DNA of 64,000 bases from Bacteroidota bacterium (GTDB taxonomy: Bacteria; Bacteroidota; Ignavibacteria; OLB7). Position numbers and translations under genes: made by a program. Location of the stretch: assembly GCA_018266795.1 (NCBI GenBank), contig JAFDZV010000036.1, positions 26,971-90,970 of the forward strand. Direction: 5' to 3'. Under the pieces are notes generated by a model. It was given only the letters and a program-made list of their open reading frames with translations, had not been told where the DNA came from and searched no databases. Positions 25,770 to 63,568 of the stretch are shown piece after piece (position 1 is the stretch's first letter; each line of letters begins with the position of its first letter).

Positions 25770-25827
25770 TACCGGCCTGGCACGTGGGGCCGATACGGCT
25801 TCATGGCGACAGATGCAATGAACGACG

Positions 25828-25865
25828 GCGTCTCGTTACTTCGGGTGACGAGACGCTTCGTTTTT
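25828..25865 (+). terminator. Rho-independent terminator closing the giant-gene block
   Basis: A perfect 9-bp stem GCGTCTCGT / ACGAGACGC (25828-25836 and 25848-25856) around an 11-nt loop, followed by TTCGTTTTT. It lies 59 nt after the paralog B stop. Confidence 0.7.
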
Positions 25866-25885: not shown

Positions 25886-26938
25886 TCACCGCTCCCGAAA
25901 CTCCTGCGGTGCATTCGGCACCAGTGCGGGATCGGCGAGGTCCAACTCCAGCAACGTCTTTCCGTTGTTCGCCTCCACGCCGACGGTGAATGCGCCGAGT
26001 GATTGGAACGTGTACGCGAGCGTGCGATCCGGGCCAAGCTCCGCCGTCACCACATCCGGTTTGAACGTCGGATGCAGATGAATGGCAACCTGGTTCGACA
26101 TCACCTGCGCTTCGTCCGATGCGGTGACCTCCAGCGTGACGCGGAAGAAGGTCCTGCTGGAATCCACCGGCGTTACCGTTGCGCCGATCCTCCAGCCGTC
26201 GCGATCGGCGAGGCCGCCGAATCTCCCCTTTGCGGGATCGGACGCCATCTCCTCGTTATCCGCGTGGCCGGCGACTCCGCGAATGCCCGGAGCCGGCCCC
26301 TTGAACGTCTGCGCTGCTGCGGGCCGTGCTGCCGCGGCTGCCGTTCGCCAGATGACGCTCGCAAACTTCACCTGATTCTCCTTCGCCTGTTCGATGTCCG
26401 CCTGCACAGTCTCGCCAACCTTCTGTGCCTCCACGGATGCAGCGGTAGCCGACTGCGATATCTCCATCGCCGCCTCCGATCGCAGCTGAGCCGCGGCGGA
26501 TTTCCGCATCGCCCGCTCCGAATTTCGTTTGGCGTCGGCCGCCAGTGCGATCACCTGCCTGGAGACCGAGCCGATGAAGGCGCGCGAGGAGATGGCCGCC
26601 GCAAGACAGAAGCCGCCGTAGATGAAGAACTGCCATCCGGAGAGCTGCGCCGGGTTCGATGTGTCCACCAGTTTGCTGTCCGCGATCTTCAGGAAGAGCG
26701 GCACCAGAAACGCGGCGCCGACACCACGTACCACCGGCTGCCACACCGATGTGTCGGTAGGCACCGGTTGAGCCGGGACCGGCGTGGAGGCCGGATCGGC
26801 GGCCGATGCTCCGGTTGTGTCCGGTTCCGGCCGGCGCAGCGCGGAACGTCCATCCGGAAAGCCGAAGTAGCTGACCAGCCCTCCGAATATCCCGGCGAGA
26901 ACCGTGAGCGTGATGAGAATCGGGATCTGGGTTTCCAT
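25886..26938 (-). CDS. Membrane-anchored coiled-coil protein with a C-terminal pYEATS-like domain (350 aa)
   Basis: Three hydrophobic segments (IPILITLTVLAGIFGGLVSYFGF, VVRGVGAAFLVPLFLKI, WQFFIYGGFCLAAAISSRAFIG). An Ala/Gln/Glu-rich helical stretch follows. The C-terminus DPAKGRFGG...WRIGATV...FFRVTLEV...VAIHLHPTF...GAFTVGVEA...LLELDL matches my recollection of the prokaryotic YEATS (pYEATS) domain signature. Confidence 0.7.
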   Translation of the reverse strand: METQIPILITLTVLAGIFGGLVSYFGFPDGRSALRRPEPDTTGASAADPASTPVPAQPVPTDTSVWQPVVRGVGAAFLVPLFLKIADSKLVDTSNPAQLSGWQFFIYGGFCLAAAISSRAFIGSVSRQVIALAADAKRNSERAMRKSAAAQLRSEAAMEISQSATAASVEAQKVGETVQADIEQAKENQVKFASVIWRTAAAAARPAAAQTFKGPAPGIRGVAGHADNEEMASDPAKGRFGGLADRDGWRIGATVTPVDSSRTFFRVTLEVTASDEAQVMSNQVAIHLHPTFKPDVVTAELGPDRTLAYTFQSLGAFTVGVEANNGKTLLELDLADPALVPNAPQEFRER

Positions 26939-26974
26939 GGCAGCGCATCAATAGTGTGAATCGAGGAGGGAGTT

Positions 26975-27168
26975 GGTCAGTAGTCAGTGGTCAGTAGTCA
27001 GTAGGACAATGACTCCCTGAACAACTGACGACTACTGAGAAACGCATTGATATCTAAAGCCGCGAACCTCAGATGCTCAGGATTGAGTCCTGTTCCAGCG
27101 CCGACACGAGCGTTAGATGTTCAGGAGCTTCTCAATAACAACTGACGACTAACAACTGACGACTGACG
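26975..27168. repeat. Inverted arrays of NGTCAGT heptamers (STRR-like) in an intergenic gap
   Basis: Four tandem heptamers GGTCAGT AGTCAGT GGTCAGT AGTCAGT occupy 26975-27002. Complementary-sense arrays are ACTGACG ACT ACTGAG at 27024-27039 and ACTGACG ACTAACA ACTGACG ACTGACG at 27141-27168. The same family recurs at 63317-63476. Confidence 0.85.
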
Positions 27169-27201
27169 AGCAGCGATAGCCGTGCTCTTCGCGGCCGGCC
27201 G

Positions 27202-28098
27202 TCACGGCGCCATCTGGTACGTCCGGGCGCGAAGCTCGGCCGTGATCGCCTGATCCGAGCCGAGCGCCAGAAGCCGGTCTGCGCTCACCGGCTCTCCGAT
27301 GGAGATGTTGATGGTGCGCCCCCGCTTGTTCAGGATCTCGCGTGCAAGCAGAAGCGTCGAGAGTTTCGGCAGGGCGTAGCCGATCGTCCTGAACAGAAGG
27401 CTGTTGCTGCCGTGAACGAACGTTGGCACCACCGTCGGCCGGCATCGACGTACCAGCCCGGCGAGAAGGGGATACCAGACCGGATCGACAACCATCCCCT
27501 CGCGAAACGAGTGCTGCGATATGGCGCCCGCGGGGAAGAGCACAAGCGTGCCGCCGGCCTCCAGCCAGCGAACCGTATCCGCCATCGGGCGAAGGTTGGC
27601 GCGCTTTGCATCGGGTTTGTTGACTGCATCGACGAAGATGAACTCGCTCTGCAGCTCCGGCACCACGCGAAGCTGATAGGCTGCCATGGTGCGTGTGTCC
27701 GGGCGTTCGGCGCGCACCAGCTCGTGGAGTATCATTCCCTCTGCGGCGCCGAACGGATGGTTTGCAATGACGATGGTTCCGCCCGTTCGCGGGATGGACG
27801 CAGGAGTACCGCGCGCTATGGTCCACGCAATGCCGAAGCGTTTCAGCAGGCGCGCCATGAATCGATCGCCGGCAGTGCCGTTGCTGCGCTCGAGCTCCAC
27901 CGTTTCCAGCACGCGCGCAACACCGGTGGCGCGCAACACCGCCGCGCGGAGAGCACGCTTCCAGGAGCCTGCCGATGCGTCCGGGAAGAGAAGGTCCAGC
28001 GTTGTATTCGATACATGTTCTTCGGACACGCTGCGCGGCTGGTTCGGTTTCGCATCCGCGACGCGCGGCGCGGGAGACGTCTGTGCCGGGGAGGTCAT
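27202..28098 (-). CDS. Lysophospholipid/glycerolipid acyltransferase-family protein (298 aa)
   Basis: The motif VIANHPFGAAEGMIL resembles the NHxxxxD/E acyltransferase box of 'putative hemolysin'/PlsC-like proteins, and a downstream LVLFPAG block is present. I chose the ATG at 28098 (MTSPAQTS...) because the upstream 118 codons of the track ORF are Arg/His/Gln-rich and overlap a better ORF in another frame. Confidence 0.65.
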   Translation of the reverse strand: MTSPAQTSPAPRVADAKPNQPRSVSEEHVSNTTLDLLFPDASAGSWKRALRAAVLRATGVARVLETVELERSNGTAGDRFMARLLKRFGIAWTIARGTPASIPRTGGTIVIANHPFGAAEGMILHELVRAERPDTRTMAAYQLRVVPELQSEFIFVDAVNKPDAKRANLRPMADTVRWLEAGGTLVLFPAGAISQHSFREGMVVDPVWYPLLAGLVRRCRPTVVPTFVHGSNSLLFRTIGYALPKLSTLLLAREILNKRGRTINISIGEPVSADRLLALGSDQAITAELRARTYQMAP

Positions 28099-63310: not shown

Positions 63311-63316
63311 TCGAGT

Positions 63317-63476
63317 GGTCAGTAGTCAGTGGTCGGTAGTCAGTAGCTCGTTGTTGTCTTCGACTGGCAACTGACCACTAACGACTAACGACTGACATTC
63401 CGAAGTCAGTGGTTGGTAGTCAGTAGCTCGTTGTTGTCTTCGACTGACAACTGACCACTAACGACTGACGACTGAC
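63317..63476. repeat. Two tandem 80-bp units of the NGTCAGT-heptamer inverted-repeat element
   Basis: Unit A (63317-63396): GGTCAGT AGTCAGT GGTCGGT AGTCAGT AG - spacer CTCGTTGTTGTCTTCGACTGGCA - ACTGACC ACTAACG ACTAACG ACTGAC. Unit B (63404-63476) is the same with 3 left-arm heptamers. The 50-nt cores differ at only a few positions, at a spacing of 80 nt. The element starts 7 nt after the stop at 63310. Confidence 0.85.
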
Positions 63477-63568
63477 AACCTGCACTCCGAATTGCACTGA
63501 GAGGAAGTCCATGCAGATGTGTCGAGGAGGTATGCGTAGGGCGGGCGCCTTCGGCGCAGGCAAATCAT

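What the first reader, a model, noticed from the sequence alone, without database searches (positions are those of the whole stretch)
25886..26938. Membrane-anchored coiled-coil protein with a pYEATS-like C-terminal domain, convergent on the giant block
The C-terminal ~110 aa (DPAKGRFGGLADRDGWRIGATVTPVDSSRTFFRVTLEVTASDEAQVMSNQVAIHLHPTFKPDVVTAELGPDRTLAYTFQSLGAFTVGVEANNGKTLLELDLAD) fit the pattern I recall for prokaryotic YEATS domains: D-P-x-K-G-x-(F/W)-G-G, then R-L/I-x-A-x-V, then F-x-V-x-L-x-V, then V-x-F-x-L-H-P-(S/T)-F, then G-x-F-x-(V/I)-G, then LELDL. Comparative genomics has described this domain as an adaptor or effector-associated module in NTPase-dependent biological conflict systems. 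Here it is fused to a 3-TM anchor and a helical stalk. I do not recognise that architecture, and no partner NTPase is adjacent in this window.
Basis: partly seen in the sequence, partly recalled or inferred. Interest (0 to 1): 0.6.

Follow-up and report, generated by a model that had tools for sequence, protein, structure and literature searches.

The report
Known YLATT–pYEATS membrane protein, divergent member
The gene is real and does encode a three-helix membrane anchor joined by a long helix to a bacterial YEATS-like domain, but this exact architecture is already catalogued (Pfam YLATT + pYEATS), so it is a divergent, stand-alone member of a known, experimentally untested family rather than a new design.

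Summary
The ORF at 25886-26938 (-) is real: 350 aa, dN/dS 0.27 against a 71%-identical orthologue. It passes Pfam's cut-offs for pYEATS (PF20305) and for YLATT, "YEATS-Like-Associating Three TM" (PF20303). The exact protein is already in NCBI.

The family has about 3,200 clusters at 50% identity. pYEATS lies in the C-terminal part of its proteins and is elsewhere fused to SIR2, TIR, subtilase, caspase, SLOG or STAND domains, so YLATT sits in the effector slot. Neighbours of 21 YLATT-pYEATS loci vary, and only one locus has a STAND NTPase operon. In this window the context is envelope/housekeeping, and the adjacency to the giant gene is lineage-specific.

Best reading: a stand-alone cytoplasmic-sensor/membrane-effector protein. 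That mechanism is inferred, not shown. Interest is low to moderate.

The parts
25886..26938 (-). YLATT-pYEATS gene (350 aa + stop)
   Evidence: ORF; Pfam PF20303 + PF20305 above cut-offs; identical protein in NCBI and 71% orthologue; dN/dS 0.27
26519..26938 (-). YLATT three-TM module (aa 1-140): TM1 aa 4-26 (26861-26929), Pro-rich loop 1 aa 27-65, TM2 aa 66-85 (26684-26743), short loop 2, TM3 aa 101-124 (26567-26638)
   Evidence: Pfam YLATT 78.1 bits in two stretches; hydropathy and K/R distribution; AF2 helices 4-26, 66-85, 101-116 and 118-192; invariant G19, G72, P80-L81-F82-L83, C111, A115, F121; 89-93% identical to the orthologue
26363..26587 (-). Long helix (aa 118-192) continuing from TM3 into the cytoplasm (stalk)
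   Evidence: AF2 model, pLDDT ~55-80; no heptad periodicity above shuffles
26240..26362 (-). Low-confidence Ala/Pro/Gly-rich linker (aa 193-233)
   Evidence: pLDDT <50 for aa 184-234; 46% identity and dN/dS 0.45 against the orthologue
25889..26239 (-). pYEATS domain plus conserved C-terminal tail (aa 234-350); pocket positions H289, T291, F292, L314, F317
25827..25857 (.). G+C-rich hairpin between the two convergent genes (terminator-like)
   Evidence: 14-pair stem followed by a T-run on the + strand; sequence
26939..27201 (.). 263-bp upstream intergenic region carrying short dispersed repeats; only 36 bp in the orthologous locus
27202..28098 (-). Upstream same-strand acyltransferase (Acyltransf_2; resembles the OlsF O-acyltransferase domain and GlsA); start codon uncertain
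   Evidence: syntenic in the Kapabacteria locus with a 36-bp gap to the YLATT-pYEATS gene

Best explanation
The gene encodes a divergent member of the known YLATT-pYEATS family. It is an inner-membrane protein with an N-out/C-in three-helix module. TM3 continues as a ~75-residue helix into the cytoplasm, followed by a flexible linker and a cytoplasmic YEATS-fold beta-sandwich. Shown here: family membership, the fold, a partly conserved reader pocket, purifying selection, and the absence of a conserved partner gene. Inferred: it works as a one-polypeptide sensor-effector. In this model the cytoplasmic pYEATS domain binds a ligand, either an acyl-amide (acyl-lysine-like) group on a protein or metabolite or a partner protein. 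That signal passes through the stalk to the strongly conserved 3-TM module, which then acts on the membrane by oligomerising and causing leak or depolarisation. This would be analogous to SLATT-type TM effectors. The main argument is positional: in other pYEATS proteins the part N-terminal to pYEATS holds SIR2, TIR, subtilase or caspase effector domains, and YLATT occupies that position. In this genome it is a stand-alone gene without an NTPase. My confidence in the identity is about 0.95 and in the mechanism about 0.35-0.4.
Against: No experiment exists on any YLATT or pYEATS protein. There are no PADLOC or NCBIfam hits. Only about 3-4 of 64 neighbours in 21 loci hit defence models. The contexts of many homologues are housekeeping, for example L007 beside a ribosomal operon and enolase. 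The window context is glycosyltransferase, acyltransferase, TonB-dependent receptor and release factor. The pocket Tyr/Trp is Leu314 here, so ligand binding may be altered or lost. TM2 and TM3 are only moderately hydrophobic, and topology rests on the positive-inside rule alone. Membrane permeabilisation is pure analogy.
Confidence: 0.4

Rival explanations
1. Membrane-tethered adaptor or scaffold. In this reading YLATT is only an anchor, and the cytoplasmic pYEATS domain (with its conserved FPxEFRER tail) recruits or regulates a separately encoded soluble enzyme at the membrane. The enzyme differs between genomes.
For: The gene directly upstream on the same strand is a different enzyme in different loci: patatin (L003/L008), Peptidase_S8 + CHAT (L006), EAD5-trypsin (L024), Peptidase_C1 (L018), DUF6623 with a 4-bp overlap (L012), and an acyltransferase here. 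The C-terminal tail is 87% conserved, with invariant F347 and R348.
Against: No partner is conserved. Several loci have only housekeeping or unknown neighbours. The TM helices carry invariant motifs and the lowest dN/dS in the protein. In other architectures pYEATS is fused directly to the effector rather than recruiting it.
Confidence: 0.25
2. Envelope or lipid housekeeping role. In the Kapabacteria-like lineage the gene would belong to an operon of glycosyltransferase, aminolipid-type O-acyltransferase and YLATT-pYEATS. The membrane-proximal pYEATS pocket would read an N-acyl amide, such as an aminolipid head group or an acylated lysine of an envelope protein, to regulate membrane composition.
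For: The genes are on the same strand. The gap between the acyltransferase and the YLATT-pYEATS gene is only 36 bp in the orthologous locus. The acyltransferase resembles the OlsF O-acyltransferase domain (E 3.8e-36) and GlsA (E 1.4e-20). Patatin-like lipases recur near pYEATS genes in about 5 loci. The surrounding genes are envelope or housekeeping genes.
Against: The association is seen only in two closely related genomes whose whole block is syntenic. In the window the gap is 263 bp and holds an inserted repeat. The acyltransferase scores are far below the equivalog cut-offs (124.8 against 620, and 73.6 against 260). No other YLATT-pYEATS locus has such an acyltransferase. The pocket here lacks the key aromatic residue.
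Confidence: 0.12
3. Functional partner of the convergent giant-protein block, for example in anchoring, secretion or immunity for the 3404-aa LysM protein.
For: The convergent adjacency is kept in the Kapabacteria orthologous locus. dS is elevated both in the 3' half of this gene (0.96-1.16) and in the giant gene (0.72), against about 0.3 in the other flank.
Against: Three loci with 37-39%-identical homologues of the giant gene's C-terminal part keep their own upstream block genes (LysM in all three, MBL-like in one) but have no YLATT or pYEATS in 12-24 kb, checked with HMMs on six-frame ORFs. None of the other 20 YLATT-pYEATS loci has such a giant gene. The convergent orientation with a hairpin between the genes argues against co-transcription.
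Confidence: 0.03

Closest known systems
YLATT-pYEATS proteins (Pfam PF20303 + PF20305; NCBI 'YEATS-associated helix-containing protein'), e.g. CHSO_0051 of Chryseobacterium sp. StRB126
   Same: Same domain order and size (~350 aa): 3 TM, helical stalk, linker and C-terminal pYEATS. The invariant PLFL, DPxKGxFGG, LHxS/TF, GAFTVG, LELDLA and FRER motifs are present.
   Different: Only 24-34% identical to typical Bacteroidota members. It lacks their ~70-aa TM2-TM3 insert; this short-loop form is itself common (43 of the 87 classifiable sequences). It has a longer Pro-rich loop 1, and Leu replaces the pocket Tyr/Trp.
Eukaryotic YEATS acyl-lysine readers (AF9, ENL, Taf14, Yaf9, GAS41, YEATS2; Pfam PF03366)
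   Same: Best structural match. The 'vvFhLHeSF' and 'Y-x-x-F' pocket elements align.
   Different: Sequence similarity is marginal (E ~0.2 by HMM against PDB sequences). The AF9 Y78 / Taf14 W81 position is Leu here. The protein is bacterial and membrane-tethered, not chromatin-associated. No ligand is known.
[quoted passage not shown]
   Same: A small helical TM module attached to, or encoded next to, cytoplasmic sensing modules in conflict systems. SLATT proteins are predicted pore-forming effectors and are required for DRT10 defence. pYEATS, like SLATT, co-occurs with SLOG domains.
   Different: Three TM helices rather than two. No Pfam SLATT match at E<=10. No nucleotide-signalling or RT partner is present here. 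The resemblance is functional analogy only.
SIR2-pYEATS, ParA-like NTPase-TIR-pYEATS, subtilase-pYEATS and SLOG/caspase/STAND-pYEATS proteins
   Same: Same pYEATS domain in the C-terminal part of the protein, with the same motifs.
   Different: They carry enzymatic or NTPase modules where this protein has a membrane module. Many have 2-3 tandem pYEATS copies.

Membership tests
pYEATS (Pfam PF20305) | HMM score at or above the gathering cut-off | tested here: met
   34.3 bits against 26.9, E 2.1e-8, aa 265-334 covering profile positions 1-72 of 73
pYEATS (Pfam PF20305) | YEATS-type Ig-like beta-sandwich fold | tested here: met
pYEATS (Pfam PF20305) | Family sequence motifs (DPxKGxFGG, LHxS/TF, GAFTVG, LELDLA, FRER tail) | tested here: met
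   All are present, and the invariant columns D, H, F, G-A-F-T-V-G and E are conserved in the window protein
Eukaryotic-type YEATS acyl-lysine reader | Complete aromatic-cage pocket (AF9 H56, S58, F59, Y78, F81) | tested here: not met
   H289, T291, F292 and F317 align, but the Y78-equivalent is L314. That position is Y/W/F in 158/170 domain instances.
Eukaryotic-type YEATS acyl-lysine reader | Binding of acetyl- or crotonyl-lysine | not testable with these tools
   Needs binding assays with the purified domain
YLATT (Pfam PF20303) | HMM score at or above the gathering cut-off | tested here: met
   78.1 bits against 26.7, E 5.5e-22, in two stretches split by the loop-1 insert
YLATT (Pfam PF20303) | Three TM helices fused N-terminally to a pYEATS domain | tested here: met
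   Hydropathy and AF2 helices 4-26, 66-85 and 101-124, with pYEATS in the same polypeptide
NTPase-centred conflict systems (Kaur et al. 2020, PMC7159879) | Adjacent STAND, vWA-MoxR or other NTPase core gene | tested here: not met
   None found among the window ORFs scanned from 9 to 47.5 kb or in the orthologous locus. One is present in only one of the 21 YLATT-pYEATS loci, L024.
NTPase-centred conflict systems (Kaur et al. 2020, PMC7159879) | Effector-associated domain (EAD), Death-like or TRADD-N adaptor linking effector to NTPase | tested here: not met
   No EAD hit in the window protein at E<=10. EAD5 was seen only in the L024 neighbour.
Catalogued anti-phage defence systems (PADLOC-DB 2.0) | Match to any defence-protein model | tested here: not met
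   0 families at E<=10. Few neighbours across the loci match.
Coiled-coil proteins | Heptad (a/d) hydrophobic periodicity in the helical stalk | tested here: not met
   Contrast 0.18 against a shuffle mean of 0.16 +/- 0.06. Typical members are 51-60% E/K/R/D/Q. This is a crude home-made test.
SLATT 2TM effectors | Two-TM SLATT domain with SMODS, SLOG or RT partner | tested here: not met
   Three TM helices, no SLATT Pfam hit, and no such partner in the window

The most novel reading that the evidence does not exclude
Bacterial pYEATS domains are genuine acyl-amide readers. In this Kapabacteria-like lineage the membrane-tethered copy, with Leu in place of the pocket Tyr, has been re-purposed from conflict to envelope physiology. 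It would be co-expressed with an aminolipid-type O-acyltransferase, would sense N-acylated aminolipids or lysine acylation at the inner leaflet, and would gate its 3-TM module in response. That would make it the first prokaryotic 'reader' of an acyl mark wired directly to a membrane output.
Probability: 0.07. Interest if true: 0.65.

Novelty: new member of a known kind. Interest (0 to 1): 0.25.

Why it matters
The main value is as a correction. The architecture flagged as unrecognised is a catalogued Pfam pairing with thousands of relatives, so this window does not reveal a new design. The remaining interest lies in the family rather than in this copy. No YLATT or pYEATS protein has been studied experimentally, yet the eukaryotic acyl-lysine pocket is largely conserved in bacteria (H-x-S/T-F plus Y/W-x-x-F). 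The domain is also wired to SIR2, TIR, caspase, SLOG, STAND and a 3-TM module. If pYEATS reads an acyl mark to trigger these outputs, that would be a new sensing principle in bacterial conflict or stress systems. The window copy, with its Tyr-to-Leu pocket, minimal loops and no partner genes, would be a useful natural variant for testing what the pocket does.

Tried and rejected
Literature. Five searches (pYEATS, YLATT, 'prokaryotic/bacterial YEATS', PF20305/PF20303, conflict-system terms) found no text on the bacterial domain. The 'YEATS' hits in Kaur et al. 2020 are an author's surname, and its one held supplement and the 2021 paper have nothing.

Family and collection scans. PADLOC and NCBIfam scans of the protein were empty. 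The phage collection gave no match. Rfam found nothing in the window. There is no sigma-70-like promoter near the gene, though that consensus may not apply to this phylum.

Conserved partner gene. I clustered neighbours of 44 non-redundant loci and scanned them with Pfam and PADLOC. No cluster is shared by more than 7 loci, and the most frequent ones are probably two-component regulators. My single-linkage cluster c19 was heterogeneous: EAD5-trypsin in L024 but Exo_endo_phos in L018. I therefore do not count it as a recurrent partner.

Link to the giant gene. Rejected after looking at distant homologues. The full-length giant-protein search timed out.

Spurious-ORF explanation. Rejected on dN/dS, homologues and HMM hits.

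Coiled-coil description. Rejected on the periodicity test.

Gene calls in fetched loci come from a crude longest-ORF caller, so small genes and exact starts are unreliable.

Full report
**1. Observation**

Its translation ends with the quoted C-terminal string.

It is a real gene:
- The identical sequence is in NCBI as a hypothetical protein of a Bacteroidetes MAG.
- A 71%-identical orthologue from Candidatus Kapabacteria is named 'YEATS-associated helix-containing protein'.
- Nei-Gojobori dN/dS between the two is 0.27.

The overlapping plus-strand ORF at 26003..26959 is an antisense shadow of the kind common in 62% G+C DNA.

**2. Identity**

Pfam gives two hits above the curated cut-offs:

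| Family | Bits | Cut-off | E-value |
|---|---|---|---|
| PF20303 YLATT, 'YEATS-Like-Associating Three TM' | 78.1 | 26.7 | 5.5e-22 |
| PF20305 pYEATS | 34.3 | 26.9 | 2.1e-8 |

The architecture it 'did not recognise' is the one the N-terminal family is named after. PADLOC and NCBIfam have no model for the protein.

A profile of 18 full-length homologues, searched against 1.84 billion representatives, finds 3,210 clusters at E<=1e-3 and 2,400 at E<=1e-10. Of the 174 family sequences I collected:
- 110 carry both modules;
- 60 carry pYEATS only, mostly as 2-3 tandem copies;
- about half of the classifiable two-module proteins (43 of 87) share the window's short TM2-TM3 loop.

**3. Anatomy**

- Hydropathy shows three hydrophobic segments at about aa 5-27, 66-85 and 101-124.
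- An AlphaFold2 model built on the 18-sequence alignment has helices at 4-26, 66-85 and 101-116. A single helix at 118-192 carries TM3 on into a stalk. Residues 30-60 and 184-234 are disordered. A confident beta-sandwich covers 240-350 (pLDDT about 88-93).
- Flanking K+R counts favour N-out/C-in in all 18 members (145 against 53; 9 against 1 for the window protein). This puts pYEATS in the cytoplasm, which fits its other fusion partners (section 5), all normally cytoplasmic domains.
- The stalk has no heptad periodicity above shuffles. In typical members it is 51-60% charged or polar residues (E/K/R/D/Q). So 'helical stalk' holds but 'coiled coil' does not, by a crude test.

Compared with typical Bacteroidota members (24-34% identity), the window protein and its orthologue lack a ~70-aa insert between TM2 and TM3 and have a longer Pro-rich loop 1.

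**4. Is it really YEATS-like?**

Three independent lines agree:
- Foldseek against the PDB puts seven Taf14 entries and Sas5 in the top eight, with Yaf9, AF9, YEATS2 and ENL further down the list (E 1e-4 to 1e-2).
- A profile of 42 pYEATS domains hits PDB sequences only weakly (E about 0.2). However, 28 of the 30 listed are YEATS domains, aligned on AF9's 'VVFHLHESF' pocket strand.

hhalign to AF9 (E 1.4e-4) aligns the pocket residues as follows:

| AF9 pocket residue | Window protein | pYEATS family |
|---|---|---|
| H56 | H289 | invariant His |
| S58 | T291 | S or T in 168/170 |
| F59 | F292 | invariant Phe |
| Y78 | L314 | Y/W/F in 158/170 |
| F81 | F317 | invariant Phe |

The Tyr/Trp alternation at the Y78 position mirrors AF9 Tyr against Taf14 Trp. 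Leu occurs there only in the window protein, its orthologue and one other domain. So the family keeps a reader-type pocket, and this copy has lost one aromatic wall.

**5. What pYEATS travels with**

In every architecture I examined, the accompanying domains lie N-terminal to pYEATS:
- SIR2_2-pYEATS, ParA-like NTPase-TIR_2-pYEATS and Peptidase_S8-pYEATS.
- In 36 large proteins: SLOG cluster 4 (13), caspase (5), nSTAND1, STALD, LRR, response regulator and TIR.
- RefSeq-annotated 'SIR2 family', 'FRG domain-containing' and 'pYEATS domain-containing' proteins on rhizobial plasmids.

There is no match in phage genomes. This is the domain vocabulary of the Aravind-type conflict systems. My survey supports its substance. 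By position, YLATT replaces an effector domain.

**6. Neighbourhoods**

I fetched 47 loci from reference genomes plus nine from protein look-ups, called ORFs crudely, and clustered and scanned the neighbours.

Across the 21 non-redundant YLATT-pYEATS loci there is no conserved partner. The gene just upstream on the same strand varies:

| Locus | Upstream same-strand gene(s) |
|---|---|
| L003/L008 | patatin |
| L006 | CHAT + Peptidase_S8 |
| L018 | Peptidase_C1 |
| L012 | DUF6623 |
| L026 | histidine kinase (HisKA_3-type cluster; response regulator just before it) |
| L007 | two proteins with no Pfam hit (histidine kinase and response regulator further upstream) |

- One locus, L024, is a typical conflict operon: trypsin-like peptidase, PLD, AAA-like protein, STAND-like NTPase, EAD5-trypsin and then YLATT-pYEATS.
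- Others are plainly housekeeping. L007 lies between a ribosomal-protein operon and enolase/citrate synthase.
- Only about 3-4 of 64 neighbours hit PADLOC models.

**7. The window's own context**

Upstream on the same strand are:
- a 1206-aa GT2-methyltransferase-GT2-GT4 protein;
- an Acyltransf_2 protein resembling the OlsF O-acyltransferase domain and GlsA, well below their equivalog cut-offs.

Beyond them lie an MBL-rhodanese homologue, a TonB-dependent receptor and a release factor. No NTPase was found.

The Kapabacteria locus is collinear. Its gap between the acyltransferase and the YLATT-pYEATS gene is only 36 bp, against 263 bp here, where a short dispersed repeat has been inserted.

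Identity across the syntenic block:

| Gene | Identity to Kapabacteria orthologue |
|---|---|
| TonB-dependent receptor | 97% |
| Glycosyltransferase | 94% |
| MBL-rhodanese | 94% |
| Acyltransferase | 88% |
| Giant gene | 84% |
| YLATT-pYEATS | 71% |

Within the YLATT-pYEATS protein, the TM segments (89-93%; dN/dS 0.13-0.17) and the C-terminal tail (87%) are constrained, while the loops and linker diverge.

The convergent giant gene is not a partner. Three loci with 37-39%-identical homologues of its C-terminal part keep their own upstream block genes (LysM-containing in all three, MBL-like in one). None has YLATT or pYEATS.

**8. Mechanism**

Shown:
- family membership, fold, probable cytoplasmic orientation and a partly conserved pocket;
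- strong constraint on the TM module;
- no fixed partner gene.

Inferred:
- It is a single-chain sensor-effector. Ligand binding by pYEATS would be transmitted through the stalk to a membrane-active 3-TM module. SLATT is the analogy: it is a predicted pore-former and is required for DRT10 defence.

I put this mechanism at about 0.35-0.4. The rivals are:

| Rival | Confidence |
|---|---|
| Membrane-tethered adaptor for variable neighbouring enzymes | 0.25 |
| Lineage-specific envelope/lipid role linked to the acyltransferase | 0.12 |
| Link to the giant block | 0.03 |

**9. Verdict**

This is a new, divergent member of a known but experimentally uncharacterised family. It is not a new architecture, and it shows no sign of an NTPase-dependent system in this genome. 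Interest is low to moderate.

Noticed in passing
window 26974-27001, 27020-27044, 27137-27175; 63316-63478: A dispersed short repeat built of ~14-nt units (TGGTCAGTAGTCAG and the related AACAACTGACGACT), in both orientations, lies in two intergenic regions. There are 10 matches at <=2 mismatches against 0.2 expected. At 26.9-27.2 kb it is an insertion relative to the Kapabacteria locus. It may be a REP/MITE-like element. Rfam has no match.
   Followed up: partly
window 9-25769 (+): The 'giant block' has five co-directional ORFs: 2910 aa (it starts near the window's left edge, so it may extend beyond it; no Pfam hit), 458 aa (collagen-like repeats), 1259 aa (no hit), 457 aa (weak MBL / ComEC-like) and 3404 aa (only a LysM hit). 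Homologous blocks in metagenome contigs (L057-L059) carry the same content split into several ORFs, and most of those products have no Pfam hit. This is a large uncharacterised gene set.
   Followed up: partly
window 25886-26938 versus L001 10001-11053: Synonymous divergence jumps about threefold inside the gene. dS is about 0.3 in the TM-encoding 5' half and in the housekeeping flank. It is 0.96-1.16 in the stalk, linker and pYEATS parts and 0.72 in the giant gene. This suggests a recombination boundary or a more divergent imported segment.
   Followed up: no
L024 1814-10690: A Cyclobacteriaceae MAG has a same-strand run of trypsin-like peptidase, PLDc_2, AAA-like protein, STAND-like NTPase (NPHP3_N/NB-ARC/nSTAND), EAD5-Trypsin_2 and YLATT-pYEATS. 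It is the only locus seen where YLATT-pYEATS sits in a typical NTPase conflict operon, and it is a good candidate for experiments.
   Followed up: partly
P0066, P0072, P0108-P0170: Many 500-1,800-aa proteins carry 2-3 tandem pYEATS domains in their C-terminal part, behind SLOG (LDcluster4), caspase, nSTAND1 or LRR modules. Their domain variant has the motifs DDLQKxRWGG and AYEAFTVGA.
   Followed up: partly
plasmid NZ_CP076854-type hits; H6 NZ_CP054613.1 1508884-1509189: pYEATS occurs on rhizobial megaplasmids in 'SIR2 family' and 'FRG domain-containing' proteins. One Paenibacillus replicon matches only the YLATT part (aa 7-130), in a stretch with no listed gene.
   Followed up: no
L003/L008 9136-9927; L020, L042, L017, L053: Patatin-like phospholipase genes recur near pYEATS genes. 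They are directly upstream on the same strand in the Ferruginibacter loci (L003/L008) and within 1-8 genes in four other loci. The association is weak and possibly above chance, and I did not test it statistically.
   Followed up: partly
window 25827-25857: A 14-pair G+C-rich hairpin with a T-run sits between the two convergent genes. It is a likely shared (bidirectional) terminator.
   Followed up: no
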